Shown here: in pieces, positions 1 through 47,600 of the stretch
How the letters are laid out: every line of letters begins with the position of its first letter
Numbering within the stretch: position 1 is the stretch's first letter
IMG/VR virus record: IMGVR_UViG_3300008110_000439
Coordinates: 1 to 51,557 of that record
Source: a virus
Taxonomy: Duplodnaviria > Caudoviricetes
DNA: 51,557 nucleotides
Direction: 5' to 3' (one strand)
Program-made: the position numbers and the translations under genes
The notes under the pieces: generated by a model
What the model saw: only the letters and a program-made list of their open reading frames with translations
Database searches by the model: none
Told to the model about the DNA's origin: nothing

Positions 1-182
1 CAAGCCGCAACGGTAAGGCTCAGCCACACCTGAACGGTAAAGCTCAGCCAAGCCGCAACGGTAAGGCTCAGCCACACCTGAACGGTAAGGCTCAGCCAAG
101 CCGCAACGGTAAGGCTCAGCCAAGCCGCAACGGTAAGGCTCAGCCACACCTGAATGGTAAGGCTCAGCCAAGCCGCAACGGT
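1..182. repeat. 24-bp tandem repeat array with two unit variants, truncated by the window start
   Basis: Units CAAGCCGC-AACGGTAAGGCTCAGC (A) and CACACCTG-AACGGTAAGGCTCAGC (B) in order A,B,A,B,A,A,B,partial A. Confidence 0.95.
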
Positions 183-653: not shown

Positions 654-1178
654 ATGACGAATACTGTACCTGCTAAGCAGGATGGGCAAGAGCTGCTTGA
701 CTTTACTGATGTACTACGTTACGAGCCTGATACGGGCAACTTCTTCTGGCTTGTGGACAGGCCACGTAGGACCAAGGCGGGGGACCAGGCAGGTTACTTA
801 AACAACAAAGGCTACGTAGAAATACGGTTTAATTATAAAACATATCAAGCACATAGAATTGCATGGTATTTACATACAGGCCAAGACCCTAAGGGATTCC
901 ATATTGACCATATAAACAATGACGGAGCAGATAACCGTTTCTGTAATTTACGACTAGCTACCCCGCAACAGAATGCTTGTAATACTAGAAAACGCGTCGG
1001 TACGGTTTCAGCGTACAAAGGTGTATCTTGGTATAGAGCAAAACAGAAATGGATAGCCCAGATAAGAGTAAATAATAAGGCTACGCATCTAGGTTACTAC
1101 GCTGATGAGTACGAAGCCCACGTAGCTTACTGCAGAGCGGCTCGTAAATACCACGGCGAATTTGCAAACTTTGGATAA
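654..1178 (+). CDS. HNH homing endonuclease with C-terminal AP2 DNA-binding domain
   Basis: YEPDTGNFFW, AHRIAW, IDHINNDGADNRFCNLR (HNH_3), YKGVSW...W.AQI...HLGYY..E.EA..AY (AP2). Confidence 0.9.
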   Translation: MTNTVPAKQDGQELLDFTDVLRYEPDTGNFFWLVDRPRRTKAGDQAGYLNNKGYVEIRFNYKTYQAHRIAWYLHTGQDPKGFHIDHINNDGADNRFCNLRLATPQQNACNTRKRVGTVSAYKGVSWYRAKQKWIAQIRVNNKATHLGYYADEYEAHVAYCRAARKYHGEFANFG

Positions 1179-1930: not shown

Positions 1931-2116
1931 GTGCCTAGGGAGTGGGATAGCGAGGAGCGGGAACCATGGAATCCCAAGATTGCATCGATAATTAAGACTA
2001 TTGATCTACATAATGTGTACTACTTAAGTGGTGGCGGTGAACGCCACCTACTTATGGCGCAGATGCTACGGGAGTATATGTACGAATTAAAGGAGTGGCT
2101 AAGCGAGGCCAGTTAG
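1931..2116 (+). CDS. hypothetical protein
   Basis: 61-aa ORF (REPWN..I...IDLHN..YL) resembling small cyanophage proteins from recall. Confidence 0.55.
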   Translation: MPREWDSEEREPWNPKIASIIKTIDLHNVYYLSGGGERHLLMAQMLREYMYELKEWLSEAS

Positions 2117-2410
2117 ACGGTCCACGGTTGCGCGGTCCAGGTCTACAGCTTCGAGGACGGTGAGGGTGTTGTCGAGTTCATCGGCCGCGTAGACGTAGGT
2201 GTTGTCGAACCAGCCAAGGGTGCGGTAGAGGGGGCCGCGTGGGTTCTCTTGGCGGCTAAGCGTGGCGTGGATTGACCATTCGCTGGGAGCGATGTCTTTG
2301 AGGTAGGTGGTGCGTGCCACGTCCTGAGCCTCTTCAGGCGAGCTGGCTAAGACGAGGCACTCGCTAAGTAGTTCGACGGCGTAGAGGCGAAGGTTAAGCG
2401 GTGTGGACAT
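2099..2410 (-). CDS. hypothetical protein
   Basis: 103-aa ORF with VLASSPEEAQDVA motif. Confidence 0.6.
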   Translation of the reverse strand: MSTPLNLRLYAVELLSECLVLASSPEEAQDVARTTYLKDIAPSEWSIHATLSRQENPRGPLYRTLGWFDNTYVYAADELDNTLTVLEAVDLDRATVDRLTGLA

Positions 2411-2465: not shown

Positions 2466-3236
2466 TTAACGCTTTAGCGCCAGCGCCCAGCGGGGTGCGC
2501 GGGTGGTGCTGCCTAGGTCAGCTTGGGCGGCGTGGCTTAGGTGCTTCACCACGATGCCGTCGGTGGGCCAGGAGCGGAACGTACCACCGCTTAGCCAGGC
2601 CGTGTGGAGCTGCTCGACCTCGGCCTGCTTAGTGCAGAGGAGGGTGTCGGGCACCTGGAAGGAAAGGCGGCTGAGTAGGTCGATGGTGGAGGTCTCGTCG
2701 GAGCGGGGGGTGTGGCTAAGGGGCGCGGTGTAAGCGCTGAAGTGGAGGCCGGTGCCGCTGAGCTGCTTCTTCCTTAGGGCGGCGGCGGGGGTGGATTGTT
2801 TGTGGTCGTCGGACCAGAGCTCGCCGGTCACGTCGAAGACGCCGCTGAGTGCTGTGGCGACACCGCTGAGGCGCTTGGGGATGTCGCTGATGAGGAGAGC
2901 CAGGGCCAGAGCACACTTACCGCTGCGGGTCCAGGCGGCTGTGAGGATGCCGTCTTCGTAGCGGAGGGCAAGGGCGATGCCATCGATCTTGGGCTGGACT
3001 ACGACGCCCACGGGCTTGGTGGCGTCCCACCAGTCACCTAGGTCGGAGCAGTCGAGACTTAGGAGGGCGGTGCCGCCGCCTGGTTGCTGGAGTTCGGGGG
3101 CGTGGGGGGCCACGCTGCGGAGCTGCGCGATGAGGGTGTCAAAGGCCTCGTCGCTCATCAGGGGCGTCCCAGCGCGGTAGGCAGCGTCGGCCTGGCGGAC
3201 TTGGTTGCGGAGCGATTCGACCGAAGCGGTAGGCAC
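2466..3236 (-). CDS. NAD+-dependent DNA ligase-like protein, domain Ia plus adenylation domain only
   Basis: Ia-like AY..GTPLMSDEAFD; motif I PKIDG; TRSG; motif III GE; motif IV PTDGIVVK; motif V PRWALALK then stop. Confidence 0.85.
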   Translation of the reverse strand: MPTASVESLRNQVRQADAAYRAGTPLMSDEAFDTLIAQLRSVAPHAPELQQPGGGTALLSLDCSDLGDWWDATKPVGVVVQPKIDGIALALRYEDGILTAAWTRSGKCALALALLISDIPKRLSGVATALSGVFDVTGELWSDDHKQSTPAAALRKKQLSGTGLHFSAYTAPLSHTPRSDETSTIDLLSRLSFQVPDTLLCTKQAEVEQLHTAWLSGGTFRSWPTDGIVVKHLSHAAQADLGSTTRAPRWALALKR

Positions 3237-3336: not shown

Positions 3337-4059
3337 TTAGCCCATCGCATCCCTTAGGGCCTGGGTTAGGAGCGTGGGCAGTAGGCGGTCTGACGTGGCC
3401 TTGGTGCGGCCGTAGAAGTCGAAGATGGTGGGTACGGTGGGTTCCTTGGTGGTGAGGCGGAAGAGTAAGTCGAGTTTTCTGTTCTTGACTTGGTAGATGC
3501 CGTTGGACAGGTGGTTGGCGCGTCTGGAGGGCTTGCGGCGGTCGGGGACAGAGAAATAACGCGGGGCGTTTTTGCCGGAGCCCATACCGGTGTCGCTTTT
3601 GAGGGCAGTTAGCACTTGCTGGTACTGTCCGCGGGACATGTTTCCCTGGATGAGCCGTACCCCACGGCCTTTTAGGAAAGGGATGGCGTACATCGAAGGG
3701 TCGATGATGCCGTTCTTGCGTAGGGCGCGTGTGAAGCGGGTGATGTACGCAGGCTTACCGCCGGTGCCGTCCTCGGTGCTGACTGGATAGAGGTAACGCG
3801 CAGGATCCTGACCATCGGGACCGTCAGTGCTGATGCTTATACGCAGCTCTAGGCCGTCTGCGGCGTAGCGAGGGGAGCGCAGGGTGAACTGCACTGGATT
3901 AGCGAACTGCTCGCCCATGTACTGGGCAAGGTCTTTGCGCAGCTCGAAGCCCAGCTTCTGCATGCTGCGCTTGCCGGCGTAGGGCAGCTGCACCGACTGC
4001 AGCGCCGTGACGTAGCCGATAAGTTGGTCGGCCTGGAAGGTGATGGACTGGTTGGCCAT
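3337..4059 (-). CDS. phage protein, possibly of the virion morphogenesis/neck family
   Basis: 240-aa basic ORF; QLPYA...F.NPVQFT...FDFY pattern resembles a family usually found beside terminase genes. Confidence 0.5.
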   Translation of the reverse strand: MANQSITFQADQLIGYVTALQSVQLPYAGKRSMQKLGFELRKDLAQYMGEQFANPVQFTLRSPRYAADGLELRISISTDGPDGQDPARYLYPVSTEDGTGGKPAYITRFTRALRKNGIIDPSMYAIPFLKGRGVRLIQGNMSRGQYQQVLTALKSDTGMGSGKNAPRYFSVPDRRKPSRRANHLSNGIYQVKNRKLDLLFRLTTKEPTVPTIFDFYGRTKATSDRLLPTLLTQALRDAMG

Positions 4060-4084: not shown

Positions 4085-4900
4085 TTAGGTGCTTAGCCCT
4101 GCCGCAAGCTTATCGAAGTACTGTTCGCAGCGTTCTAGATAGCGGTATTCGGCGCCACGCAGTTCAAGCTCACTCAAGGGTCTTAGGTCTACGGGACCTG
4201 CGCGGCGGGCGATGACGATGTAGGCAGCTTTAGCTTGTATACCAGTAAGGTGCTTAAGTCCGAGACTATAGGCACCTAACTGATCTGTGTAATCAACCAG
4301 CATAGCTTCGCTGCGTCGATTGAAGGATGATTTCCAGTCGACCAAGGTTGGGCCTACGCCTTGTACGTCTAATAGAGCATCACAAGTACCGGCAAAGCCT
4401 GCAGGGTGGTGAATACTGAACTCGATGGCGTGGATGGCTGTGACGTTCTCCTCAATCCACGCAAGGAGGGACCGCTTATACCCATTAGCGCTGAAGCCTA
4501 CCTTCGGTGCATTAGGAAGAACGCGCTTGAGGGCCCAGCGGGTGAGGGGAGCTGGGGCACGCAACAAGCCGTCAGGCTTCTCATAGATAGAGCCTTTCTT
4601 CTTAGCGGTTTGATCAGCAAGCTTCTTAGCAGCCCGGAGCACGTACTCAGCAGAGTTGTGCATGCGTGTGCCGCGTTCGGCTGCCGTGTCGCGTTCCACG
4701 GCAGCACGCTCTTCGCCAAGGCGAGCTACCCAGGCTTCGAGGGCGGTTTTGCTGTCGCTGGTTTCTTTGAGGATGCGGGTGACGCTGTGGTAAATCTCAC
4801 CGGCGCTGTCGCGGTAAATGCGCCCATTGGGGTCGGTCTCGTCGTCCCTTTCGAGCTGGGAGCGCTTAAGAGCGGCAAGGCGTTCGTTGGGCGTGAGCAC
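4085..4900 (-). CDS. PD-(D/E)XK exonuclease (MGME1/Cas4-like)
   Basis: YHSVTRIL, RGTRMH, FAGTCDAL, LVDWKSS, QLGAY motifs. Confidence 0.85.
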   Translation of the reverse strand: MLTPNERLAALKRSQLERDDETDPNGRIYRDSAGEIYHSVTRILKETSDSKTALEAWVARLGEERAAVERDTAAERGTRMHNSAEYVLRAAKKLADQTAKKKGSIYEKPDGLLRAPAPLTRWALKRVLPNAPKVGFSANGYKRSLLAWIEENVTAIHAIEFSIHHPAGFAGTCDALLDVQGVGPTLVDWKSSFNRRSEAMLVDYTDQLGAYSLGLKHLTGIQAKAAYIVIARRAGPVDLRPLSELELRGAEYRYLERCEQYFDKLAAGLST

Positions 4901-4940: not shown

Positions 4941-4969
4941 AAGAAAAAGCCCCCTAAGTGTGGGGGCTT
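4941..4969 (-). terminator. putative Rho-independent terminator
   Basis: AAGCCCC...GGGGCTT hairpin with an A-run on the plus side, giving a U-tract on minus. Confidence 0.55.
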
Positions 4970-6413: not shown

Positions 6414-8954
6414 CTACTCAAGCTGCCAGCGCACTTGGTCGCGACGGACAGCGCGAACTAGACGACCAACGCCGTAGTCGTTGACCAGGCGTTCGAGCAT
6501 CTGCCTGGCCTCGCCTCCGCTGTTGGCCCACTTCTTCAGCACGAGGTCGCGATGGGTGACGGTGCCGGTCCCGTTGTCCTCGGCTAGGCGGACGATCTTG
6601 ACGACCCAATGGGGGAGATCGCCGCCACCCACCTGAGGAGCTAGCACGTCGAACTGGCAGATGAAGAAGCGGCAGAGCACCACGGCCCGTTCCATTACGT
6701 CCTTGGTGATCAACTCGCCCATGGCGTGCTCCGGGGCCTCTGCGGCGTAGTCAAGGGCGTGGAGCAGGCCAGCAGTACGCGCCAGGTAACCGCGCATCTT
6801 GCCGAGGAAGGCGGAGCGGCTGGCATAGGTGAGGTCGGCCTCAACGCTCCACTCGTCGCAGACCTGAGCAAAGAGCTCCCATGCCTCAGGATCCAGCCTC
6901 ACCACCTTGTGACGCCCAATAGAGGTGTCGAGCTCGTGAATTAGCTCGTGCAGCTCCTTCGTGATCTCAGCCTCGTTGAGGTTCTGCTTAGGAAAGACGT
7001 ATTCGGGGACGATCCAGAGGAAACGGGCCCAGAAGCCATCACCTGATTTGGCTGTGGCGTCATCACCGTGGAGCAGATCGGTGAGCTTGTCCTGCTGGAT
7101 GGCACCGAAGACGTTTACGGCAGTGCGGTCCACCATGATCGGGTCGCAGCCCTTGCGGACGATGTTGATCGAGCCGCCACTCCACATGCTGAGCCAGTGG
7201 GCCCGGTCACTATTGTTGCTGCGGTACTTGTCCATGTCACCGATGAACGCCGCAAGCTCGTCGTGGAAGCTGACGACGCCATGAACGTCCTCGCGCTCGA
7301 GAAGGGTGCAGAGGCCCTCAAGGGTGGCGTCTATCACGACACGTTGTCTAGGTAGGGCTGGGGGTTCTTCCCGGTCCTCCCTAGGCAGTGCTTTGTAGCG
7401 CATAAGGTCGCGCTTGTAAGCGCGTTGGTCTTGCCCGTCGAGAGTAAACAGGGGACCAAGAAACTGGTTGGCCACAGGTGTCTTTAGGGATGAGGCGGGA
7501 GCTACGGTGCCCATCCAAAAGACCAGTGGTTCGCGCCACCCCTCTTTGATCTGAACGCGAAAGCGCTTGCCCATCACTGCGCACATGGTGGTGATGAACG
7601 GTGCAATTAGCGCAGTATGGGCTACGGGGAAAGCATCAGCTCGGCCGCCTAAGAGGTCTGCGATACGTGGGTGGAATACAGATTGCAATTTGAGTTGAGT
7701 TGCGGCCGACTTAGACCACTGCTTAAAGCTGGTCTGGCGCAATTCTCTCAGTAGTTCGTCATCTTCGCTATTGCGCTGCTCCTTACGGATTTCGCGCAGA
7801 ACTGGCCATGGACGAGGCCAGCCGTTGTACTCAGCTGTATCGAAAACGTGGTAGATGCGCTTGTACGGAACACCTTGACGCTCATCGCTGCTTCGGCGGA
7901 TGGCCTCAGCTTGTTGTTCGAGGTTCCAGTGCTCGGTGGACCAGTTCGCGTTTACAGCAATGCTTATGGCTTGGTCTGCACCAAATTCATTAACTAGCGC
8001 TGCATAGATGCTGAAGGCGGCGCCATAGGTGTTGGTGCCTGGCTCAAGACGCTGAGGGCAGTAGGTAAGAGCAGTTATACAGAGCCGCACCTTTTCTTCG
8101 TGCGTGAGGCTGCTGTAGTGGGGGCCATTGGGCTTGTACTCGCTGTCGTAGGCCTCTTGGCTTTTGACGAAGGCGGCATAGGCCTTGGCATCAATGTCTC
8201 GATCAGGGAACTCAACAGCTTGCTGAGGAGCTGCAGTCTTAGGGAGTGCTTTGCCGAGCTGCTGACGAGCTGCGTTGCTAAGGAGGCCGCGCTTGCCTTC
8301 AGCAGTACGCAGGCTCAAGCCGGCTGCATCGCCGAGATGCTGCTCAGGGGGATCCGTCAGTGCAACCAGTTGACTTAGAGGGAAGCGCTCGCCGGTGGCA
8401 CTGATCACGCGGCTTAATTCGCCGGTTTCGGGATGCTTACCACCGGCCAGGCGCATGACACGAGCAGGATTGCAGAGTTTGGTGTCAATCTCTACGCCGG
8501 TAACGGTGCGCTTGACGTGGGCGAAGAGGCGCTTTTGAGCTTGGCGGAACTCGACGCCACTGCAGGGCTGGTCAAGGATCCAATAGTTGTGGACGGACTT
8601 TCCGCCTGTCCACATCTGCAGAGAGGGGTGGGGGAGACCAGCCTCTACCCATTGCTGCTTCTTTTCGTCGAGGTTGCTGAGGGGATTGTCGTCCTCGTAG
8701 AAAAGGGCGCGGCAGTAGGTGATCTCACTGTTCTTAGTTCCGCCCCAGTTTGGGATGTAGCCAAAGCCGTAGCCAGGACGTGCGGCAAGTTCCCGCTCGA
8801 TCCGTGCTTTGTCGAGGACCCCTTCAACGTCGATGTGGTGGCAGGGCAAGTCCTCTCCCTTTTTCTTTGGGGGGAAGAGGGCGATGAAGTAGCCCTCTTC
8901 GGCTGTGATGCCCAAGTGACTTAGCTGCTCTTCGACTTGGGTCCAATCCACCAT
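6414..8954 (-). CDS. RepB-like DNA primase fused to a DUF3987 (YfjI-like) P-loop domain; start uncertain (8954-9056)
   Basis: FYEDD, TGGKSVHNYW, NPARVMRLAG (RepB primase); APASSLKTP, DATLEGL, HDELAAF, GAIQ, GDGFWARFL (DUF3987). Confidence 0.8.
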   Translation of the reverse strand: MVDWTQVEEQLSHLGITAEEGYFIALFPPKKKGEDLPCHHIDVEGVLDKARIERELAARPGYGFGYIPNWGGTKNSEITYCRALFYEDDNPLSNLDEKKQQWVEAGLPHPSLQMWTGGKSVHNYWILDQPCSGVEFRQAQKRLFAHVKRTVTGVEIDTKLCNPARVMRLAGGKHPETGELSRVISATGERFPLSQLVALTDPPEQHLGDAAGLSLRTAEGKRGLLSNAARQQLGKALPKTAAPQQAVEFPDRDIDAKAYAAFVKSQEAYDSEYKPNGPHYSSLTHEEKVRLCITALTYCPQRLEPGTNTYGAAFSIYAALVNEFGADQAISIAVNANWSTEHWNLEQQAEAIRRSSDERQGVPYKRIYHVFDTAEYNGWPRPWPVLREIRKEQRNSEDDELLRELRQTSFKQWSKSAATQLKLQSVFHPRIADLLGGRADAFPVAHTALIAPFITTMCAVMGKRFRVQIKEGWREPLVFWMGTVAPASSLKTPVANQFLGPLFTLDGQDQRAYKRDLMRYKALPREDREEPPALPRQRVVIDATLEGLCTLLEREDVHGVVSFHDELAAFIGDMDKYRSNNSDRAHWLSMWSGGSINIVRKGCDPIMVDRTAVNVFGAIQQDKLTDLLHGDDATAKSGDGFWARFLWIVPEYVFPKQNLNEAEITKELHELIHELDTSIGRHKVVRLDPEAWELFAQVCDEWSVEADLTYASRSAFLGKMRGYLARTAGLLHALDYAAEAPEHAMGELITKDVMERAVVLCRFFICQFDVLAPQVGGGDLPHWVVKIVRLAEDNGTGTVTHRDLVLKKWANSGGEARQMLERLVNDYGVGRLVRAVRRDQVRWQLE

Positions 8955-9036
8955 GACCGGCTCGTGGGGTCCAAACACCATAACGGGAGTTGCCACGACT
9001 CGCAATGGGCTGTAGGATCGGTCCGTTCCGCTGGAT

Positions 9037-9846
9037 TTGCCGGTGTCATCCGCCAAGAGAGCCAGGATCCAGGCTTACCTGGAGCCAGAGCTAGCTGAAA
9101 TCATTCGTAAGCGTGCTGAGGAGGAGGATCGCCCCGAAAGCCGCGAGGTCACCAGGCTGGTACGCCTTGGTCTCGAGGCCGACGCTAAGAATTACGTCTT
9201 AGGCGGCAAGGCGTTTCGCACCAAGGCGGACATCCAGGCGCATGTACGGGCAGTGCGTGACGCAGCCGAGCTTGGTGAACGTATTACTGATCTTGTGGTG
9301 CTCGAGCTACTGGCACTCCACCCTGAGTGGGAGGAGAAGACAGCGGGCGGCGGATGGGTTGGCGCAGCGTTAATTAGTCATCCCGCCAAGAGGAAAGCCA
9401 CTAAGGAGATTGCGATCCTGTTTACAGGGGAGCAACGGGTGGTGGACATCAGCTGGACTAAGTTGCTGCCGTTTCTGCAGAAGGGCGTTAATGCCCCTAT
9501 TGCCGTGTGGGATTCACGTTTAAGTGAATTGCGCTTGGCTGCTAGGCAGGAAGTTGAGGCGCAGATACAGCCTCTGCGCAAGCCGGGGTGCGCTGTCGAT
9601 CACGTGTATCCACTCACCTTCGAGCAGTTGCTATACGACTGGCTCAGTGGAGAGGCCTTGAGGGTGGATGATGTGCCGCTGCGTGATGGTGTTGGTCAGG
9701 ACACCAGCCGCCATTTCTTAAAGCCCGAACAAGCTGAGTCTTGGCGGGATTACCACAGGCTCCATGCGCTACTCGACGTTATTTCTTACGAAGAGCACGC
9801 AAAGCGCACGGGCCGCGCTCACATCGATTGGACACCTTTTCTTTAA
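9037..9846 (+). CDS. RHH-like N-terminus fused to a DCL/DUF3223-like protein
   Basis: RIQAYL...AEE..R..S..V.RLV (ribbon-helix-helix); FRTK...LL.LHPEW.EK...DISW.K (DCL-like); VDHVYP.TF...W.DYH...S.EEH. Confidence 0.55.
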   Translation: MPVSSAKRARIQAYLEPELAEIIRKRAEEEDRPESREVTRLVRLGLEADAKNYVLGGKAFRTKADIQAHVRAVRDAAELGERITDLVVLELLALHPEWEEKTAGGGWVGAALISHPAKRKATKEIAILFTGEQRVVDISWTKLLPFLQKGVNAPIAVWDSRLSELRLAARQEVEAQIQPLRKPGCAVDHVYPLTFEQLLYDWLSGEALRVDDVPLRDGVGQDTSRHFLKPEQAESWRDYHRLHALLDVISYEEHAKRTGRAHIDWTPFL

Positions 9847-12272: not shown

Positions 12273-12358
12273 CTGTTTACCAACTCCTGGAATTCCTGCT
12301 TATGTACATGGTGCTATGCAGTGTAGCACTAATTATTGCATCTAAAGTTTTACCTTGA
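12269..12358 (+). CDS. 29-aa membrane micropeptide, copy 1
   Basis: MTVYQLLEFLLMYMVLCSVALIIASKVLP; ATGA/TGATG coupling at both ends; paralogue at 15710. Confidence 0.7.
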   Translation: MTVYQLLEFLLMYMVLCSVALIIASKVLP

Positions 12359-12636
12359 TGGCCTATTTTAAAAGCTCCCTTAGTGAAAAGGACTTCTATT
12401 TGTCCTTAGCTAATCGGCCTCGCAAGGCCGGTGTAAGCAGTGCATTTAGAGGTGTTTCTCGCATTTCACGCTCTCCCGACAAATGGAGGGCAGGTCTGAC
12501 TTACAAGGGCCGGCGCTATTACTTGGGGTCCCACGACACCGAGATAGAAGCTGCTAAGGCTTACAACAAAGCTGCCCTAGCCATTATCGGCGACCACGCT
12601 GTAATTAACCCCTTACCTGAACCTGCCGATGCCTGA
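12358..12636 (+). CDS. stand-alone AP2-domain DNA-binding protein
   Basis: SSAFRGVS...KWRA.L...GRRYYLGSH.TE.EAAKAYNKAA. Confidence 0.85.
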   Translation: MAYFKSSLSEKDFYLSLANRPRKAGVSSAFRGVSRISRSPDKWRAGLTYKGRRYYLGSHDTEIEAAKAYNKAALAIIGDHAVINPLPEPADA

Positions 12637-13796: not shown

Positions 13797-14068
13797 CACG
13801 CCTTATTTCCCCGCCCGCTGCAGTCATCCGCCAATGGGAAGCCGAATGGGACACCAACGGCGCCGCCCATTGCGACAAAGCCCTCTACATCGCCGCTAAG
13901 GCTGCAACCTGGAGCGCGAAGGCTGCCATTGAGTGCGCCCTGAAGGACACTGCCTCATGTCATTGGCGTGTTGCCGATGGCCCCGAAGATGGAGTGCAGC
14001 TTGTGCGAGCCAGTGATCTGGTGGCTTGGGCTGCTGCCATTGGCAAGCGTTACGAGGTTGAAGAATGA
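13793..14068 (+). CDS. hypothetical protein with PPxxVIxQW module
   Basis: ISPPAAVIRQW...IAAKAATW resembles the N-terminus of the next two paralogues. Confidence 0.65.
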   Translation: MTRLISPPAAVIRQWEAEWDTNGAAHCDKALYIAAKAATWSAKAAIECALKDTASCHWRVADGPEDGVQLVRASDLVAWAAAIGKRYEVEE

Positions 14069-14430
14069 CTGCCATCACCCCACCGCCGGAGCTGGTGCAG
14101 CAGTGGATGGAAGAGCTATACGGCGGTCCAGTTTCTGTGATTAGCCCGTTTGATCAACGCGTCCTTATAGCTGCCGCCCAATGGGGCGCGGACCAGCAAC
14201 TTGCAGAGGATGCAAAATGGCTGGATCACAATGCTCTAAATGAACCGCATCTGCGGATCACTCCAGTAGGTGAATCGTTAAAAGAAGCAATGCGCCCCAA
14301 GCCACCGAGCTTGAAGGAGCAGGTGCAACAGGCGTTGGGCCGGTTCAACGCCAATGCTCATACAAGTGCTGACGAAATGGTGAACGACTTCGGCACCATC
14401 CGCCGCGCCCTGGAGGCACTTCCCGAATGA
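14065..14430 (+). CDS. hypothetical protein, ITPPPELV family paralogue 1
   Basis: ITPPPELVQQW...AAQWGADQ...RPKPPSLKEQ...TIRRALEALPE. Confidence 0.75.
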   Translation: MTAITPPPELVQQWMEELYGGPVSVISPFDQRVLIAAAQWGADQQLAEDAKWLDHNALNEPHLRITPVGESLKEAMRPKPPSLKEQVQQALGRFNANAHTSADEMVNDFGTIRRALEALPE

Positions 14431-14519
14431 CTGAGTCGCTGGATAAGGTTGACTCCTTGCTGTGTCTGATCTTCTTCTTTGGTTTCCTTGTTGGCTTATT
14501 TGTAGGTAGCATCCGATGA
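14427..14519 (+). CDS. 30-aa membrane micropeptide
   Basis: MTESLDKVDSLLCLIFFFGFLVGLFVGSIR; ATGA-coupled at both ends. Confidence 0.65.
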   Translation: MTESLDKVDSLLCLIFFFGFLVGLFVGSIR

Positions 14520-14893
14520 CTGACCACCCGATCACTCCGCCGCCAGAGCTGGTGGGCGAGTGGCTGTGCGACGACGGCTACCCCTGGGATCCGTCTGAAC
14601 AGGTCACGATCACGATCACTACCAACCGACTACGCAATGTCGCCACCCAAGCCGCCCGCTGGGGGAGCGACCAGGAGCTGGAGGCGTGCGGCGCGTACCT
14701 AGAACGTTGTGCGCAATGGGAACCGGAGGACATTGACGAACTCCGCGCCGCCCGCCGCCCCAAGCCGCCGAGCCTGAAGGAGCAGGCGCTTGCTGCGCTT
14801 CCCAAAAGGCTTGACAACGGCTTTATGACAACAGTCAACGACGAGGAACTCGACACCATCCGCCTCGCCCTGGAGGCACTGCCCGATGACTGA
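14516..14893 (+). CDS. hypothetical protein, ITPPPELV family paralogue 2
   Basis: ITPPPELVGEW...AARWGSDQ...RPKPPSLKEQ...TIRLALEALPD. Confidence 0.75.
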   Translation: MTDHPITPPPELVGEWLCDDGYPWDPSEQVTITITTNRLRNVATQAARWGSDQELEACGAYLERCAQWEPEDIDELRAARRPKPPSLKEQALAALPKRLDNGFMTTVNDEELDTIRLALEALPDD

Positions 14894-19990: not shown

Positions 19991-20533
19991 GTGAAAAAAC
20001 TTATCGGTTTGTACAGCCCGGCTGCACAGTCGGGAAAATCTTCTGTCGCTAAGTTTTTAGCGCAGGAGTGTGGCTATGAAGTTGTACCTTTTGCGCAAAC
20101 GCTTAAGGAGATGCTTATTCCTGTACTTAATGCACTGGGATATAACAACGACGATGCTTACCGCTTAGTTCATGTGGACAAAGCTATCGTCGTGCCAAGG
20201 GCGGAGGTAAGTGTTCGGCATATGCTGCGCACGCTGGGTACAGAATGGGGTAGGCAGTGTGTCCATCCCGATATCTGGCTTAGGTGTTGGGAAGAACGCA
20301 TTAAGCCACATGATTTAGTTGTAGCGGATGACGTGCGTTTCCCTAATGAGGCGGAGTTAATCCGTCGCCTAGGGGGTGAGTTGTGGTGCGTTGAGCGACC
20401 GGGCGTGCTGCGTACCCATGAACATGCCAGCGAAGGGAGCTTGGACACGTACCAGCACTTCACGAAGCTTATTGCGAATAACGGGTCGCTTAGTGACTTA
20501 GTTGATAAGCTGCGTGAAATTGCGCAGCCTTAG
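19991..20533 (+). CDS. deoxynucleoside monophosphate kinase
   Basis: P-loop QSGKSS, FAQTLK, R.L..LGTEWGR, DDVRFPNE, H.SE motifs of T4 gp1/T5-like dNMP kinases. Confidence 0.9.
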   Translation: MKKLIGLYSPAAQSGKSSVAKFLAQECGYEVVPFAQTLKEMLIPVLNALGYNNDDAYRLVHVDKAIVVPRAEVSVRHMLRTLGTEWGRQCVHPDIWLRCWEERIKPHDLVVADDVRFPNEAELIRRLGGELWCVERPGVLRTHEHASEGSLDTYQHFTKLIANNGSLSDLVDKLREIAQP

Positions 20534-20845: not shown

Positions 20846-21043
20846 GTGCCAGACGATGCAATTGATTGTGGTGATGGGTTCTATATAGAGCAGAGTACGG
20901 AACCGTGCGGAGAACCTAGGTACAGGAGTTGTAGTCCTGGTGGTGCAATAGGTCGGTATTCCAATGACTTATGGCAGGCTCAGATCTATATCGAGCATCT
21001 GAAGGGGAATCTACCGGGCGGATCCAGTCATATAACCGCTTAG
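20846..21043 (+). CDS. hypothetical protein
   Basis: GFYIE...RYRSC.PGG..RYSNDLWQA. Confidence 0.55.
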   Translation: MPDDAIDCGDGFYIEQSTEPCGEPRYRSCSPGGAIGRYSNDLWQAQIYIEHLKGNLPGGSSHITA

Positions 21044-21311
21044 CGCGAATGAGATCCCAATGAAGTTGGGACATCCACCAAAGCCATACAGGTGAGTGCG
21101 CTTTACTGATGTTGCAATCGAGGCAGGCTGGAACGCAATTTTCCGGTGATGTGGCTCCGCCCTTTGCCTTAGGCCTTACGTGATCGATGGTTGTGGCGTA
21201 GGTGCCACAGTAGGCACAGGTATGGTCCCAAGCGGAGAAGATTGAGGCTCTGAACTTTTGCCTAGTGGCTTTTTTGCTAAGCAGATGCGTGCCATCAATC
21301 TGATGCTCCAT
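20916..21311 (-). CDS. HNH endonuclease (McrA-like, zinc-binding)
   Basis: CAYCG...TIDHVRPKAKGG....NCVPACLDCNISK. Confidence 0.85.
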   Translation of the reverse strand: MEHQIDGTHLLSKKATRQKFRASIFSAWDHTCAYCGTYATTIDHVRPKAKGGATSPENCVPACLDCNISKAHSPVWLWWMSQLHWDLIRAKRLYDWIRPVDSPSDARYRSEPAISHWNTDLLHHQDYNSCT

Positions 21312-21499: not shown

Positions 21500-22024
21500 C
21501 TAGGCCGACTGCTGCCAACTCGGCATCACGCGGGTTTGATTGTTGTAATGACCTGTAAGTGCGTAGTCTAGTGTCGGCTTACTGGACATAAGCAGGAATA
21601 CCATTTGACCTATTAGAAGGCCAGGGTAAAGGGGTAGATTATGGTATGTGCGGTTATTTTTTAGTTCCAATGTGAGCTTACTGCCAGTCCAATTGCAGTC
21701 AGCGAAGCCTGCATGGCTATGCTCATAACCTTCGCGCGCACGAGAAGACTTAAGACAGAATATTCCGCAAATGTCTTCGGGCATAATGAAGACCTCTTCC
21801 GTTTCAGCTAAGAGGAATTCTCCCGGTGCTAGGTAGTAAGGCTTCTGCTTAGTGCAGTGACTTATGTCGAGCAGTTGCAGCTCTGGAGTGTGGCTTACCT
21901 CGACCATTAGGTGCGCACCAAGGCGCAGATCAAGGGAGGCGGGATTTAAGAGGGCTTCCTCGAAAGGAGTGACCATAGCCTCGTCACAGCAAAGGCGCTT
22001 AATTTCGTCGTCGTGCAGAATCAC
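21500..22024 (-). CDS. dcd: dCTP deaminase
   Basis: LNPASLDLRLG, L.PGEF.LAET.E, KSSRAREG, AGF.D, LTLELKN, IGQMVF. Confidence 0.9.
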   Translation of the reverse strand: MILHDDEIKRLCCDEAMVTPFEEALLNPASLDLRLGAHLMVEVSHTPELQLLDISHCTKQKPYYLAPGEFLLAETEEVFIMPEDICGIFCLKSSRAREGYEHSHAGFADCNWTGSKLTLELKNNRTYHNLPLYPGLLIGQMVFLLMSSKPTLDYALTGHYNNQTRVMPSWQQSA

Positions 22025-43046: not shown

Positions 43047-43367
43047 TCAATTACACGCCATGCTTACGGTGAGAGTGCGGCCCGCTAGTTGAGTAGTAGT
43101 TACGACGCGAACGTAACGAACGACGTACCCGGTGTAGAAGTCGCCATGCGTACCAGCGGCTTTTGTCTTGGCCGTGTCCAGTGATGCCCAGGTGGTGCCG
43201 TTGTGAGAACCCTGGATCTCCCACGTAATGTCGCCGCCAGTTACGGTACAGATAAAGGACAAATTACTACCACGTACTTCTACGGTTTCTGACGTACCTA
43301 CCGCCGTAAGCGTGGTAAAAGTATAAATGTTGCTGCTGATGTCAGCACTTTGCCCATAAATAGTCAT
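43047..43367 (-). CDS. beta-rich hypothetical structural protein
   Basis: IQGSHNGTTW...RYVRV. Confidence 0.65.
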   Translation of the reverse strand: MTIYGQSADISSNIYTFTTLTAVGTSETVEVRGSNLSFICTVTGGDITWEIQGSHNGTTWASLDTAKTKAAGTHGDFYTGYVVRYVRVVTTTQLAGRTLTVSMACN

Positions 43368-44611: not shown

Positions 44612-47600
44612 TCAGGTGCCGTAGCAGAAGGCGCCAGGCTGCTTGACGGCGAAGTCAACGTCCTGCAGAGCGATGATGCGGACGGTGCCTGCGGTGGCGC
44701 CGGCGTAGGGATCGACGGTCAGGTCGAGGCCGGACCACATGCCCATGATCATCATCGAGAAGTCACCAAACAGTGCGTCGTTGTTGAGCAGCTGGTTGGA
44801 GACGATGGCTGGATAGCCGTTGATCTCGTCGTTCTCGTACACGAAGCCAGCAGCCACGGCGGTGGCGGACTTGGCGGTGGACTTGAGAGCGCCACGGGCA
44901 GCAGCGTTGATGATGTAGCGCATGGAGCCGGCATCGGCGTTAGCGCTGGCCACATCGGTTTCCATGCCGATGTACTCGGCGAAGGTGCCGAAAGTGCTGA
45001 TGGTCTGGCTGCCGACGCCGGTGGTGTTCACCAGGCCCAGAGGCTGGTTGCTGGAACCGGTGCCGTAGATGCCAGCGCGGTCCAGCTCGAGGGCGATCAC
45101 GCGGGCGAGGTCGTTGCGCACCATGCCTTCCACATCGATGGAGGACTGGAGCAGCAGGCGACGGCTGTAGTCAACGAATGCACCCACTGTCTTGGGGGTC
45201 ATGTTGACTTGGTCGATGGACTGCTGAGATTCCGTGGGAGCCACGTTCTCACCAACCCAGTAAGCCGTGCTGGCCGAGGCTTGGCGGGGGATGCTGATGT
45301 TGCCCTGCAGGCCGCTCAGCATGGTCACACCGGCGTTGGCCAGAGCGAGACGATTGCGGAGCAGGTCGATGAAGGAACCGCTCAGCAGCTCGTCGGCGAC
45401 GAGGTTGCCACCAGCAGAGGGAGTACCAGCGACGAGGTCACGACGCAGCACCTCGTTGGGCACCACGATGCCGTTGGAGGAACGCTCGTACTTCTTAGCG
45501 GCGGCTTCGCCGACTTCGATCTCGAATTCGGCAGCACGGCGGGCCGAGGCATCGCCTTGGTTTGCCAGGAAGTTGAGGGCGCGAACGAAGCTGAAGCGCT
45601 TGGTCTCTTTATCCGACAGACCCACGTCGTTGGTGGTGATGTCAGCGGAGCGGATGGGTTGTTCCATGGGGGTAGAGCCGAGTTTGTCGAGGACGGCGGC
45701 GCGAGCCTCATCGAGGGTGCGACCACCTTCGATCAGTTCACGGGCCAGGTCTTGCATCTGGTGCTTAGAGCCCAGTGCGGTGATGGCGGCGATGCGGGTC
45801 CGCTCGGCCTCAGCGGCCTTGGACCGGATCACCTCCAGATCAGGGGTGTTTTCCATTTCGGGAATGGGGGTAGATGCGGTTTGGGCCGCTTGGCGTTGGT
45901 CCTGCATCTCCTCTACTTCCGTAGGGGGAACAGGCGCTTCATTAGTGATAATAGGTGTGGCGCCTTCACAGTCCCCAGTAAGTTGCGTGGTTGCGCTGCG
46001 AAGTTCAGGCACAACGTCGGTAATTAGTGAGCGCCCGATTCCAATGGTGGGATCAGCTGGGATACTCACCACGCTTACCTCGTGGGGGGACCACTTAGTT
46101 GCTACGTAGTCGCCATTGCGCTCTTCCATCTTGTCGATGGCGTAGCCGAAGCTGATGCCCCGAAGGATGCCATCCTTCACATCATCCAGCACTTCTTGGG
46201 CGAATTTGTTGCGGGAGAAGCGGACCTTGGCATAGCCACGCTTGTCTTTGTCGTTGATGTAGGCACGCTCTACTACACCGACAACCTTGTCGGGATTGTG
46301 GTTGAACAGCAGAGGGGCGCCGTCATTGAGGCGGGCTAGGTCAGCTGCGTCACCTTCGTGGCTGAGTACTTCGTTGCCGAAGTAACGGGCCACGGGATAC
46401 TCAGAGCTGAAGGGGAACTCGAAGGTCCGCTCCTCAAGTGCGCGGAAGTGAGTGGCTTCGGTTCGGGTATAAGTGCCGCTTAGGTCGCGCTGGGCGGTTT
46501 CAAGAGTGCGAAGAGCTTCGATTTTGCGCAGCGTCGAGAACTTGTGGCCGACAAGAGTTTCGGTGGCGTCCCAGCCGTCAGCACCTTCGCGGTAGATGCG
46601 AATTAGAGCAGCGGGATCTTCGGCGGTGGCGTTGATGCTGAACTCGGAGTCGGGGACGCCGAGGGTGCCTTCGCGCATCACGTGTTCGATACGGCCGCGT
46701 GCCGTACCACCGGAGCTGTTCCAGCTAACGAAATCGCCTGTACTTAGGTCGGAGGGCTTAGCGCGTTCCACGGATTCATCAGCGGCACTTAGTTCTTCAA
46801 CCTTAATGCGCTCGCCTGTTGCTTCCTCGAATTGAATCGGGGTGTAATCGTGCTCGCGAAGCCATTGACGGGCCTCGGAAGCCGTGAATTCACTTAGGCG
46901 GAAGCGGATTGCTTGAAGATCGGTGCCTTGCTCACCTGTTTTGATGCCGAAGATGAAATCGACACCCTTACCTGCGGCGTTGTTGCGGCGGCGGAAGCGG
47001 TCGTAAGCCGAGGGGTCCTTCAGGCGAGCGGCGTGCTCTTGCGGGTAGGGACGACCCTCATTAGGTTCTTCGGCCTCGGACATTAGGCGCTCAGGGACGA
47101 TCCAAAATTTGCAGACGCCTGCCGGATCGATGTCGCCGCTGACGATTTCGCAGGCGCGGGGACCGGCATAGAAGGCGCAGTTTGCGCAGACCATGCCATC
47201 AGAAGCGAAGGGGCTTTCGCTCATGTAATGGGCACCGTGAGCACCAGAACCCTGGTCGAAGGCGCCGAGGTCTTCGGCGATCTCTTCGAGGGCTTCGTAT
47301 AGCGCGACTTGCGGGGCTTTTAGCTCCGCAGTCAGTTCGCGGTCTTTGTCGATGGTGCTCATGATGTTGTCACTCCAGGATTTGCCGGGATCGCCACCCC
47401 ATGCTGCCCAGGCGACCCGGCCAGGAGAGGGGTAGCCTTCTTCGCCTGGACTGAAGCCTTGGCCCTGTTTGTCTACTTCGTGGCGGGCGAACCACGCGGA
47501 CATGGTTCGGACGGTCTCAGCGCTAAGGGGGTCGCCGCTAAGTATTTGGGAGGCGCGGTTGGCTGCGACTTCCGTGCCACCGGCATTGCCTTCTGCCTTC

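What the first reader, a model, noticed from the sequence alone, without database searches (positions are those of the whole stretch)
2466..3236. Stand-alone NAD+-ligase adenylation domain with no OB, Zn-finger, HhH or BRCT domains
Seen: a 256-aa ORF retaining the Ia-like NMN-binding segment and motifs I, III, IV and V, ending immediately after motif V. It has its own promoter-like element, and no OB-fold remainder is recognisable nearby. Knowledge: LigA needs the OB domain for nick sealing, but the isolated N-terminal domain can self-adenylate from NAD+. Inference: a repurposed enzyme, such as an NAD-consuming adenylyltransferase, a DNA/RNA end-capping enzyme, an anti-defence factor, or a ligase completed in trans by a partner such as the SSB.
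Basis: partly seen in the sequence, partly recalled or inferred. Interest (0 to 1): 0.75.

Follow-up and report, generated by a model that had tools for sequence, protein, structure and literature searches.

The report
OB-less NAD ligase core in phages
A phage gene encodes only the NAD-binding and catalytic half of a bacterial-type DNA ligase, and this short form is a conserved, selected family that always sits beside a very basic protein resembling the tail protein that touches the DNA end.

Summary
The 256-aa ORF at 2466-3236 (-) is real. It is a LigA-type Ia + nucleotidyltransferase (NTase) core that stops at the NTase/OB boundary. It is not a broken gene. At least 238 clusters of the same length exist (best 120: 230-291 aa, 95-47% identity). 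The nearest full-length LigA is only 29% identical. dN/dS is 0.04-0.33. The adenylylation residues are invariant. No OB domain was found in the window or in 10 related records, and no HhH or ATP-ligase domain in the 5 records searched.

New here: in all 39 short-ligase loci a 240-aa, pI-10 protein (window 3337-4059) is present, and in 36 it is the gene immediately upstream. Its model best matches the solved tail completion protein of phage 80alpha, which contacts the packaged DNA end.

Best reading (0.45): the catalytic subunit of a trans-completed NAD+ ligase or 5'-adenylyltransferase. The linkage reflects few evolutionary events, and primase is equally syntenic. The "own promoter" was not reproduced. 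The SSB-partner idea has no support.

The parts
2466..3236 (-). 256-aa LigA-type Ia + nucleotidyltransferase core with no OB, Zn, HhH or BRCT domain. It is the catalytic protein of the finding.
   Evidence: ORF. PF01653 E 4e-18. phrog_3359 matched over positions 3-246 of 325 only. The AF2 model has pLDDT 87 and its top Foldseek PDB hits are LigA adenylation domains, E 1e-21.
3087..3236 (-). Domain Ia-like N-terminal helices (about residues 1-50) with the NMN-contact residues Y20, D29, F32 and D33.
   Evidence: Alignment with E. coli LigA: Eco Y22, D32, Y35 and D36 are kept in 14, 14, 14 (13 F, 1 Y) and 13 of 14 family rows. Helices 6-21 and 29-42 are present in the model.
2988..2990 (-). Codon of K83, the motif I (KxDG) lysine and predicted AMP acceptor.
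   Evidence: Read from the sequence: aag atc gat ggc. Invariant in 26 of 26 rows and aligned to Eco K115.
2472..2474 (-). Codon of K255 (Eco K314 equivalent), the penultimate residue. The protein ends at the NTase/OB border.
   Evidence: Invariant in 26 of 26 rows. All family members end 0-6 residues later.
3337..4059 (-). 240-aa very basic protein (pI 10.2, net +16), a phrog_1924 member, with a tail-completion-protein-like fold. It is the conserved upstream neighbour and the candidate DNA-binding partner.
   Evidence: phrog_1924 E 1.5e-26, with no Pfam or NCBIfam hit. A homologue is present in 39 of 39 short-ligase loci. The model has pLDDT 86. Its best PDB match is 9mu2_P at Z 8.7, rmsd 3.6 over 101 residues, and that chain is 80alpha gp51, the tail completion protein. 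pI.
6414..9056 (-). 880-aa primase/DUF3987 helicase, the head of the conserved block primase - basic protein - ligase core.
   Evidence: PF13148 E 5e-48. The nearest upstream gene of 150 aa or more falls into one single-linkage cluster of 700-950-aa primase-helicases in 28 of 34 loci.
4085..4900 (-). PD-(D/E)XK exonuclease between the primase region and the basic protein. At this position it occurs only in this phage's close relatives.
   Evidence: PF12705 and phrog_298. Homologues are found only in L003 and L010.
2099..2410 (-). 103-aa acidic ORF directly downstream. It is not a conserved part of the module.
   Evidence: Homologues are found only in L003 and L009. Downstream neighbours fall into 15 unrelated clusters among 34 loci.

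Best explanation
The gene encodes a working, minimised NAD+-dependent nucleotidyltransferase: the catalytic core (domain Ia + NTase) of a LigA-type ligase. It reacts with NAD+ to form a lysyl(K83)-AMP intermediate and passes the AMP to a 5'-phosphate on DNA. It has none of the OB, Zn, HhH or BRCT modules that clamp LigA onto a nick, so DNA binding and nick or end recognition must come from another protein. The best candidate is the very basic 240-aa protein encoded immediately upstream (3337-4059). That protein appears to derive from the tail completion protein family (lambda gpZ / HK97 gp10 / 80alpha gp51), whose solved member touches the 5'-phosphate end of the packaged DNA. Together they would act as a two-part ligase or end-joining enzyme within the primase-helicase replication block. 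Shown: the domain content, the conservation, the selection, the retained active-site residues, the absence of an OB domain and the gene linkage. Inferred: self-adenylylation, DNA as the substrate, physical contact between the two proteins, and nick or end sealing.
For: (1) This is a family, not an accident. There are 238 hits of 140-448 aa, and the best 120 are 230-291 aa at 95-47% identity. All 26 aligned members stop 0-6 residues after the K314 equivalent.
(2) Selection is purifying: dN/dS is 0.179 against L003 and 0.038-0.325 over 71 (non-independent) pairs.
(3) The chemistry residues are kept. Of the seven residues listed as essential in Table 1 of PMC5052709, K115, D117, G118, E173 and K290 are unchanged in 14 of 14 family rows. 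Y225 is Y in 10 rows and F in 4. E113 is Q in 13 of 14. R136 (13 R, 1 K), D285, G286, K314 and the Ia residues are also kept.
(4) The fold is that of the LigA adenylation domain.
(5) No OB domain was found in the window or in 10 relatives' records. Eight of these 11 records are rated at least 90% complete and one has terminal repeats. No HHH_2 or ATP-ligase domain was found in any of the 5 records searched.
(6) Starting from the ligase, the basic protein is present in 39 of 39 short-ligase loci. It is immediately upstream on the same strand in 36, and it is absent from the 4 loci with long ligases. Starting from the basic protein, a short ligase lies directly downstream in 34 of 48 loci.
(7) The basic protein has median pI 10.2 and net charge +20 over 36 members, whereas the ligase core is neutral (pI 6.6). 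It is also under purifying selection, 0.07-0.29.
(8) Its model has a long N-terminal helix, a beta insert and a long C-terminal helix. Its top match among 48,161 PDB representatives is 80alpha gp51. That protein is described as contacting the DNA end, with a 5' phosphate, inside the tail (passages of bioRxiv 10.1101/2024.12.10.627806).
(9) Precedents for ligases completed in trans exist. T5-like phages encode subunit A (aden + OB) and subunit B (HhH + BRCT), and PDB entries 9hu3 and 9i5i are titled 'PR1 phage heterodimeric DNA ligase'. In trypanosomes, REL1 receives its OB fold in trans from KREPA2 (abstract of PMC4366279).
Against: The linkage counts are not independent events. On the partner tree, presence of the ligase needs only 3 changes (2 forced by well-supported branches), so the co-occurrence may trace to one or a few ancestral insertions. 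The primase-helicase upstream is about as syntenic (28 of 34 loci), so adjacency does not single out the basic protein. The basic-protein family is much larger (3,504 representatives at E <= 1e-3) and occurs without any ligase in 11 of 48 loci and in Pseudomonas phage KT1. In three of these (KT1, L092, L095) it lies directly before TerS-TerL, as a late or virion gene would. No other tail completion protein was recognised in the window's tail module, so this protein may simply be the phage's virion tail completion protein. The three loci where the two genes are not adjacent carry partners of the ligase-less type. No fusion of the two proteins was found. The match to the tail completion protein is modest: Z 8.7 against a typical background best of 7-8. 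Foldseek found nothing in the PDB. Only 1 of 36 members reaches Pfam Minor_tail_Z, at E 0.01. hhalign against lambda gpZ gives a probability of 2%. Several residues invariant in LigA are changed in the family: R200 to Q in 14 of 14 rows, R277 and R308 variable, R208 kept in 10 of 14. By my recollection these serve DNA or interdomain contacts in LigA, so the substrate or the mode of binding may differ.
Confidence: 0.45

Rival explanations
1. Genome-end adenylyltransferase. The core does not seal nicks. Guided by the protein that resembles an end-binding tail completion protein, it adenylylates the 5'-phosphate of the phage genome terminus (an AppDNA cap), either to protect the end or to pre-activate the cohesive end for joining after injection.
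For: The neighbour resembles a protein seen at the 5'-phosphate DNA end in the 80alpha/SaPI1 neck, and lambda gpZ was proposed to bind one DNA end. TerL is of the lambda gpA type, phrog_15. By my recollection that type implies cohesive ends. In KT1, L092 and L095 the phrog_1924 gene lies directly before TerS-TerL. LigA-invariant arginines that I recall as nick or interdomain contacts are lost: R200 to Q, R277 variable. No other tail completion protein was recognised in the tail module.
Against: In the ligase-bearing loci the pair follows the primase-helicase, and about 6 kb of small genes separate it from TerL in the four relatives where TerL was found (about 2.5 kb in the window if its ends join). 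No 5'-adenylylated phage genome end is known to me. No evidence places either protein in the virion.
Confidence: 0.17
2. Self-sufficient minimal NAD+ ligase. The Ia + NTase core seals nicks alone, or by riding on the replisome (primase-helicase, polymerase). The basic neighbour is merely the phage's tail completion protein in inherited synteny.
For: The whole block primase - basic protein - ligase is syntenic (28 of 34 loci). Few gain or loss events explain the linkage. The basic family exists widely without the ligase. All catalytic residues are kept. The introduction of PMC4797296 says only the NTase domain is needed for every step.
Against: PMC4797296 and PMC5052709 describe nick binding by LigA as resting on the OB and HhH domains. 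By my recollection the isolated N-terminal fragment self-adenylylates but does not seal nicks. The core is not basic (pI 6.6, net -1) and has lost loops and arginines relative to LigA. The short ligase was never seen without the basic protein in the same locus (0 of 39).
Confidence: 0.15
3. NAD+ sensor, sink or counter-defence factor. The protein binds or consumes NAD+ (or a related nucleotide) without a nucleic-acid substrate, by analogy with the solo NLig-Ia proteins proposed to be NAD+ sensors.
For: Iyer et al. 2022 (PMC9503650, passages read) report solo Ia domains in 81 phages and propose NAD+ sensing. All NMN- and AMP-binding residues are kept here.
Against: A sensor would not need the full set of catalytic residues to stay invariant: K83, D85, E139, D226, K231 and K255. 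One AMP per enzyme molecule is no sink unless there is an acceptor. The gene sits in the replication block, not among defence-related genes. No PADLOC scan was run.
Confidence: 0.1
4. Protein AMPylase. The core transfers AMP from NAD+ to the basic neighbour or to another protein.
For: Tight gene coupling, with gaps of 8-40 nt or overlapping stop and start codons in many loci. The neighbour has many conserved polar or basic residues.
Against: I recall no ligase-fold NTase that AMPylates another protein. The invariant partner residues (T59, G83, Y89, L90, Y189) do not by themselves mark an acceptor site.
Confidence: 0.05
5. Decaying remnant of a full-length ligA with no function.
For: One relative (L039, the same contig as L074) carries a 2-nt insertion that breaks the gene.
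Against: The length is conserved across identities from 95% to 31%. dN/dS is 0.04-0.33. The catalytic residues are invariant. No OB remnant exists in any frame.
Confidence: 0.02

Closest known systems
Bacterial NAD+-dependent DNA ligase LigA (E. coli LigA; PF01653 + PF03120 + PF03119 + HhH + BRCT)
   Same: It has domain Ia with the NMN-contact residues and an NTase domain with motifs I, III, IV and V and the K314 equivalent. The predicted fold matches LigA adenylation domains.
   Different: Identity is only 28% to EcoLigA in the alignment and 29% to the best full-length hit. It stops at the NTase/OB border and has no OB, Zn finger, HhH or BRCT domain. Relative to LigA it has lost about 18 aa between Ia and NTase, the 'GDGT' loop after R136, and about 20 aa after motif III. 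Family-wide substitutions are H23R, E113Q, E143K/R, R200Q and D283P. It scores 80 bits against the 444-bit cut-off of TIGR00575.
Heterodimeric NAD+ ligase of T5-like phages (subunits A and B; PDB 9hu3 and 9i5i, 'PR1 phage heterodimeric DNA ligase' with nicked DNA)
   Same: It is a phage NAD+ ligase whose functions are spread over separate polypeptides. The window protein aligns to subunit A over its whole length at about 25% identity.
   Different: Subunit A (323 aa) keeps the OB domain, and the adjacent subunit B carries HhH + BRCT. Here no OB or HhH domain exists in the genome, and the neighbour is unrelated to LigA's C-terminal half (hhalign probability 0.1%). I saw only PDB titles for the PR1 enzyme and found no paper.
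Solo NLig-Ia proteins of phages (Iyer, Burroughs, Anantharaman and Aravind 2022, PMC9503650)
   Same: Both are stand-alone pieces of LigA encoded by phages, with the NAD+-binding residues kept.
   Different: Those proteins are Ia only, without a catalytic module. This one keeps the whole NTase domain. The same paper states that NAD+ ligases occur only in viruses above about 68 kb, whereas this record is 51.6 kb (passages read; the supplements were not visible).
Trypanosome RNA editing ligase REL1 with KREPA2
   Same: It is a ligase with only the catalytic domain, whose nucleic-acid-binding fold is supplied in trans by a partner (abstract of PMC4366279). This is an analogy of mechanism.
   Different: REL1 is an ATP-dependent RNA ligase, its partner supplies a true OB fold, and it is eukaryotic. 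There is no sequence relationship.
Tail completion proteins (lambda gpZ, HK97 gp10, SPP1 gp16.1, 80alpha gp51), for the neighbour at 3337-4059
   Same: Both have a long N-terminal helix, a beta-containing middle part and a long C-terminal helix. The best PDB match is gp51, at Z 8.7 over 101 of 109 residues. The neighbour is very basic, like gpZ (pI 12). There are weak sequence links through phrog_27 and Pfam Minor_tail_Z and through Atlas clusters in which 13% of members carry Minor_tail_Z.
   Different: It is twice the size of gp51. It is encoded next to replication genes rather than between the head-closure and tail-terminator genes. It is below every curated Pfam cut-off. Whether it is in the virion is unknown.

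Membership tests
LigA (NAD+-dependent DNA ligase) | N-terminal domain Ia with the NMN-binding residues (Eco Y22, D32, Y35, D36) | tested here: met
   The window has Y20, D29, F32 and D33. These are kept in 14, 14, 14 (13 F, 1 Y) and 13 of 14 family rows. H23 is R in 14 of 14.
LigA (NAD+-dependent DNA ligase) | NTase domain with the KxDG lysine and motifs III, IV and V plus the K314 equivalent | tested here: met
   K83, D85, G86, E139, D226, G227 and K255 are invariant in 26 of 26 rows, and K231 is nearly invariant there and K in 14 of 14 rows of the second alignment. PF01653 E 4e-18.
LigA (NAD+-dependent DNA ligase) | OB-fold domain (PF03120) following the NTase domain | tested here: not met
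   The protein ends at Eco residue 315. PF03120 is absent from the protein, from the whole record in six frames and from 10 related records. The control genomes rang in 11 of 14.
LigA (NAD+-dependent DNA ligase) | Zn finger, HhH and BRCT modules | tested here: not met
   No such Pfam hits on the protein. HHH_2 is absent from 5 of 5 records searched. PF03119 and BRCT were not searched genome-wide.
LigA (NAD+-dependent DNA ligase) | Score above the curated equivalog cut-off (TIGR00575) | tested here: not met
   79.9 bits against a cut-off of 444.
LigA (NAD+-dependent DNA ligase) | Self-adenylylation with NAD+ and nick sealing | not testable with these tools
   Needs enzyme assays.
T5-like heterodimeric NAD+ ligase | Subunit A made of Ia + NTase + OB | tested here: not met
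   phrog_3359 (325 positions) is matched only over positions 3-246. T5-like subunit A has PF03120 at residues 252-321. The window protein has none.
T5-like heterodimeric NAD+ ligase | Adjacent subunit B with HhH + BRCT | tested here: not met
   The neighbours carry no such domains. HHH_2 is absent from the genome. The upstream neighbour is unrelated to LigA's C-terminal half.
Solo NLig-Ia proteins | Ia domain alone, with no catalytic module | tested here: not met
   A complete NTase domain is present.
Tail completion protein (gpZ / HK97 gp10), for the neighbour 3337-4059 | Characteristic fold: a long bent N-terminal helix, a loop or beta region, and a long C-terminal helix | tested here: inconclusive
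   The model has helices 19-51 and 215-239. The best of 48,161 chains is gp51, at Z 8.7, rmsd 3.6 and 101 aligned residues. The next best has Z 5.5, but the typical background best is Z 7-8. Foldseek found no match in the PDB. BFVD gave only weak rows for HK97 gp10.
Tail completion protein (gpZ / HK97 gp10), for the neighbour 3337-4059 | Sequence membership (Pfam Minor_tail_Z or HK97-gp10_like; PHROG tail completion) | tested here: inconclusive
   36 of 36 members hit phrog_1924 ('minor tail protein'). One of 36 hits phrog_27 at E 0.005 and one of 36 hits Minor_tail_Z at E 0.01, below the cut-off. The KT1 homologue hits phrog_27 at E 2.5e-6. hhalign against lambda gpZ gives a probability of 2%.
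Tail completion protein (gpZ / HK97 gp10), for the neighbour 3337-4059 | Gene placed between the head-closure and tail-terminator genes; protein present in the virion | tested here: not met
   The gene lies in the replication block, far from the tail module (42.5-44.3 kb). Virion presence cannot be tested here.

The most novel reading that the evidence does not exclude
A previously undescribed two-component DNA-end enzyme. A protein derived from the tail completion protein family has replaced the OB/HhH clamp of LigA and presents a DNA 5'-phosphate end or nick to a stand-alone NAD+-dependent Ia + NTase core. The pair either seals the phage's own genome ends or nicks, or caps them with AMP. A virion-type DNA-end binder would then have been recruited as a ligase subunit.
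Probability: 0.2. Interest if true: 0.85.

Novelty: new variant of a known kind. Interest (0 to 1): 0.7.

Why it matters
LigA is described as a fixed six-module enzyme whose OB and HhH domains are needed to hold a nick. A broad survey reported NAD+ ligases only in viruses above about 68 kb (PMC9503650, passages read). Here a widespread aquatic group of 50-58-kb siphoviruses keeps only the NAD+-reactive catalytic core under purifying selection. If it seals DNA, it defines the smallest NAD+ ligase core and a new kind of DNA-binding partner. That would inform how ligases recognise nicks, and such a small core might be of use as a laboratory enzyme. If it only adenylylates ends, it would be a new form of genome-end chemistry in phages. 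Either way the question is directly testable with two small recombinant proteins.

Tried and rejected
1. Complex prediction of the ligase core with the basic neighbour, each given as an alignment, returned 'no answer' (score 0.00 in two runs). This is not evidence either way.
2. Foldseek of the neighbour's model against the PDB found nothing at E <= 0.001.
3. The profile of the neighbour found nothing against PDB sequences at E <= 10.
4. hhalign of the neighbour's profile found no relation to full-length LigAs (probability 0.1%), to the 106-aa ORF in the lambda-Z position (0.1%) or to 80alpha gp51 (0.4%). The relation to lambda gpZ was weak (2.3%).
5. Fusion forms were sought. The 'longer' search with the ligase gave only classical LigAs. 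The top 150 representatives of the neighbour's family are 133-309 aa. The 'longer' search with the neighbour's alignment (549-2000 aa) found nothing. These are weak negatives.
6. The GenBank phage collection gave no match above 28.4% identity for the ligase among the 40 records listed; all 256 matching records fall in the <60% band. It gave two weak matches for the neighbour. Megablast of the first 12 kb found nothing.
7. Downstream small ORFs were inspected as a possible third subunit. They fall into 15 unrelated clusters with no shared Zn or OB signature.
9. No tRNA genes were found.
10. Literature searches for this architecture or for the PR1 enzyme found nothing relevant. The search for residue roles failed, so the roles of R200, R208, R277 and R308 are from memory.
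11. The SSB-as-partner idea is rejected because the SSB-like ORF is not conserved with the ligase.
12. The first dN/dS script timed out and was rewritten.
Full report
**What is there**

The window is a whole IMG/VR virus record of 51,557 bp, which CheckV rates 100% complete. It has a siphovirus layout. On the minus strand it carries a lambda-type large terminase, a portal, a capsid-protease fusion, tail genes and an endolysin. A plus-strand block holds a family-A DNA polymerase and nucleotide-metabolism genes. A further minus-strand block at 9.0-1.6 kb holds a primase/DUF3987 helicase, a weak SSB-like ORF, a PD-(D/E)XK exonuclease, a 240-aa protein, the target ORF, and two small acidic ORFs.

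The target is a 256-aa ORF at 2466-3236 (-) with a GTG start. It matches Pfam DNA_ligase_aden at E 4e-18 and two PHROG NAD-ligase families. phrog_3359, the 325-position profile of T5-like 'subunit A', is matched only over positions 3-246.

**Checking the observation**

I aligned 14 family members with E. coli LigA residues 1-326 and five full-length LigAs.
- The Ia residues Y20, D29, F32 and D33 correspond to Eco Y22, D32, Y35 and D36.
- Motif I is K83-I-D-G. R104 corresponds to Eco R136.
- Motif III is E139. The adenine-stacking residue is Y169.
- Motif IV is D226-G227 and motif V is K231. K255 corresponds to Eco K314.

The protein ends one residue after K255. EcoLigA's NTase domain is aa 70-316 and its OB domain is aa 317-404 (introduction of PMC4797296). 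The ORF therefore stops at the domain border, 25 residues after the motif V lysine, and not 'immediately after motif V'.

The AF2 model (pLDDT 87) finds LigA adenylation domains as its top Foldseek hits, at E 1e-21. A six-frame search finds no OB domain anywhere in the record. HHH_2 and ATP-ligase domains are also absent. The promoter-like element claimed in the 100-nt spacer upstream was not found by the consensus scan.

**Not a wreck but a family**

A search among proteins of 140-448 aa gave 238 hits. The best 120 are 230-291 aa, 95% down to 47% identical, and all carry PF01653. A search among proteins of 449-2000 aa gave only ordinary LigAs. The best has E 8e-12 and 29% identity, and all 120 listed carry the OB domain.

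All 26 aligned members end 0-6 residues after the K314 equivalent, and the catalytic residues are invariant.

Nei-Gojobori dN/dS is 0.179 against the 94%-identical relative L003. It is 0.038-0.325 in all 71 pairs with at least 70% identity. These pairs share branches, and some contigs are near-duplicates. One relative (L039, the same contig as L074) has a 2-nt insertion that breaks the gene.

PF03120 is absent from the window and from 10 relatives' records (0 of 11). Eight of the 11 are rated at least 90% complete and one has direct terminal repeats.

No record among the 50,697 GenBank phages holds a close member. The best listed match is 28.4% identical, to LigAs of large phages.

**How it differs from LigA**

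The family lacks three segments found in LigA: about 18 residues between Ia and NTase, the 'GDGT' loop after R136, and about 20 residues after motif III. It also carries systematic changes.

| Eco residue | State in the 14 family rows |
|---|---|
| H23 | R in 14 of 14 |
| E113 | Q in 13 of 14 |
| E143 | K or R in 12 of 14 |
| R200 | Q in 14 of 14 |
| D283 | P in 12 of 14 |
| R277 | variable |
| R308 | variable |
| R208 | kept in 10 of 14 |

Table 1 of PMC5052709 lists seven residues as essential. K115, D117, G118, E173 and K290 are unchanged, Y225 is Y or F, and E113 (N6 contact) is replaced by Q. The roles of R200, R208, R277 and R308 (interdomain or DNA contacts) are from my memory of the Shuman laboratory's mutational papers, which I could not retrieve.

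**The neighbourhood**

Starting from the ligase, I fetched 43 viral loci. Thirty-nine carry the short form. Four carry long forms of 384-674 aa with an OB domain.

A homologue of the 240-aa protein at window 3337-4059 is present in 39 of 39 short-ligase loci and in 0 of 4 long-ligase loci. It is the gene immediately upstream on the same strand in 36 of the 39. The exceptions are L018, L037 and L041.

Starting instead from that protein, 48 loci were fetched. A short ligase lies directly downstream in 34. Three loci end at the gene. Eleven have no ligase.

Downstream neighbours of the ligase fall into 15 unrelated clusters and show no shared motif. The nearest large upstream gene is a primase-helicase of one single-linkage cluster in 28 of 34 loci. 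The conserved block is therefore primase-helicase, basic protein, ligase core.

**What the neighbour is**

It has no Pfam or NCBIfam hit. All 36 aligned members hit phrog_1924, annotated 'minor tail protein'.

The family is strongly basic, with median pI 10.2 and net charge +20. The ligase core is neutral, with median pI 6.6. The neighbour's dN/dS is 0.07-0.29.

Its model (pLDDT 86) has a long N-terminal helix (19-51), a beta-rich middle and a long C-terminal helix (215-239). Foldseek finds nothing in the PDB. An all-against-representatives structural search puts 9mu2_P first, at Z 8.7, rmsd 3.6 A and 101 of 109 residues. The next hit has Z 5.5. I confirmed by sequence that 9mu2_P is 80alpha gp51, an 'HK97 gp10 family phage protein'.

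The paper on that structure (bioRxiv 10.1101/2024.12.10.627806; passages read) makes these points:
- gp51 has the same helix-loop/hairpin-helix plan.
- It is equated with lambda gpZ, SPP1 gp16.1 and HK97 gp10.
- gpZ has an extra beta domain at its apex.
- gpZ was proposed to bind one DNA end.

Several weaker signals point the same way:
- The Pseudomonas phage KT1 homologue hits phrog_27 'tail completion or Neck1' at E 2.5e-6 and Pfam Minor_tail_Z at E 0.009.
- One of 36 members hits Minor_tail_Z at E 0.01.
- Atlas clusters near the protein carry Minor_tail_Z in 13% of members.
- Lambda gpZ is likewise extremely basic.

The Z-score is close to the tool's stated background, and hhalign against gpZ gives only 2%. 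I rate 'derived from the tail completion family' as likely but not shown.

**Cautions on the linkage**

The neighbour's family is far larger than the ligase family: 3,504 representatives at E <= 1e-3, all of about 130-310 aa among the top 150, with no fusions.

Members without a ligase still follow a primase or RusA gene. In KT1, L092 and L095 they directly precede TerS-TerL.

On a tree of 62 neighbour proteins (53 with a ligase, 9 without; L083, L085, L086 and L094 were left out as near-copies), presence of the ligase needs only 3 changes. Two of these are forced by well-supported branches. The three loci with non-adjacent genes carry neighbours of the ligase-less type.

The 39-of-39 count therefore reflects a few ancient events plus long-kept synteny, not 39 independent trials.

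No other tail completion protein is recognisable in the window's tail module. The 106-aa ORF in the lambda-Z position is acidic and unrelated. The neighbour may therefore simply be this phage's virion tail completion protein.

**Most likely mechanism**

The invariant Ia and NTase residues argue that the protein reacts with NAD+ to form lysyl-AMP. This is inferred, by homology with LigA fragments that I recall as self-adenylylating.

A neutral, clamp-less core should need help to find a 5'-phosphate on DNA. The adjacent, co-oriented, often nearly abutting or overlapping gene encodes a pI-10 protein whose closest structural relative touches a DNA 5'-phosphate end. That makes it the best candidate for the missing DNA-binding part.

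Trans-completed ligases have precedents:
- T5-like phages encode an A subunit (aden + OB) and a B subunit (HhH + BRCT). The PR1 enzyme has been solved with nicked DNA (PDB titles only).
- Trypanosome REL1 receives its OB fold from KREPA2 (abstract of PMC4366279).

I put 0.45 on 'catalytic subunit of a trans-completed NAD+ ligase or 5'-adenylyltransferase'. The rivals are:

| Reading | Probability |
|---|---|
| Genome-end adenylylation without sealing | 0.17 |
| Self-sufficient or replisome-borne minimal ligase, with the neighbour only syntenic | 0.15 |
| NAD+ sensor or sink | 0.10 |
| Protein AMPylation | 0.05 |
| Decay | 0.02 |

**Novelty**

The survey of viral NAD+ systems (PMC9503650; passages read) describes solo Ia domains. 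It states that NAD+ ligases occur only in viruses above about 68 kb. In the passages I read it does not mention an Ia + NTase-only form.

Four literature searches found no description of this architecture. I file it as a new variant of a known kind: a LigA-derived catalytic core living without an OB fold, in a conserved block with a basic protein that resembles a tail completion protein.

**Limits**

- The record may not be closed. It begins with a 24-nt tandem repeat, and the TerL frame stays open to the right end. The close relative L003 has about 5.8 kb before TerL that the window lacks. L003 and a relative with terminal repeats also lack an OB domain.
- The host is unknown. The nearest TerL (45% identity) is from a Synechococcus phage, followed by Roseobacter phages.

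Noticed in passing
window 1-182 and 411-527; window 49752-51557: The left contig end is a 24-nt tandem repeat (7.6 copies), followed by a 58-nt repeat (2 copies). The TerL reading frame stays open to the right end. The 94%-identical relative L003 has about 5.8 kb between the 96-aa ORF and TerL that the window lacks. The record may therefore not be closed, despite CheckV's 100%.
   Followed up: partly
L039:10001-10760 (same contig as L074): One relative's short-ligase gene is split into two ORFs by a 2-nt insertion relative to L020. This is either a decayed copy or an assembly error.
   Followed up: yes
L043:9944-11098 and L044:9944-11098: Phage contigs of 117-135 kb encode 384-aa Ia + NTase + OB proteins that stop after the OB domain. 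This is a second kind of truncated or split NAD+ ligase, like T5 subunit A.
   Followed up: partly
L046:5971-6702 (Pseudomonas phage KT1), L092:3306-4202, L095:5561-6340: In phages without the ligase, the phrog_1924 gene lies directly before TerS-TerL. In KT1 it follows two holin genes. This is an unusual place for a neck or tail completion gene.
   Followed up: partly
window 43047-43367 (-): A 106-aa acidic ORF occupies the lambda-Z position between the head-closure and tail-terminator genes. It shows only weak Ig / F5-F8-type hits and no relation to the basic protein. No canonical tail completion protein is recognisable in the tail module.
   Followed up: partly
window 44612-47656 (-): A 1,014-aa ORF joins an N-terminal part (phrog_2859), a protease-like stretch (phrog_80) and a major head protein (phrog_617). 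This looks like a capsid-protease fusion.
   Followed up: no
window 14065-14430 (+) and 14516-14893 (+): Two adjacent paralogous ORFs both match phrog_32006, of unknown function.
   Followed up: no
window 654-1178 (+), 12355-12636 (+), 20916-21311 (-): There are three HNH endonuclease genes or fragments. The first is HNH_3 + AP2 and lies on the opposite strand between the ligase block and the contig end.
   Followed up: no
window 19991-20533 (+) and 21500-22024 (-): A dNMP kinase and a dCTP deaminase lie beside the family-A polymerase. This could point to altered nucleotide pools or modified DNA.
   Followed up: no
window 4947-4969 (-) and 4265-4293 (-): A strong terminator-like hairpin (8 pairs, 6 of them G-C, followed by a T run) lies just upstream of the exonuclease gene. 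A 9-of-12 promoter-like site lies about 200 nt upstream of the basic protein's start. Together they could delimit a transcription unit that includes the basic protein and the ligase core.
   Followed up: no
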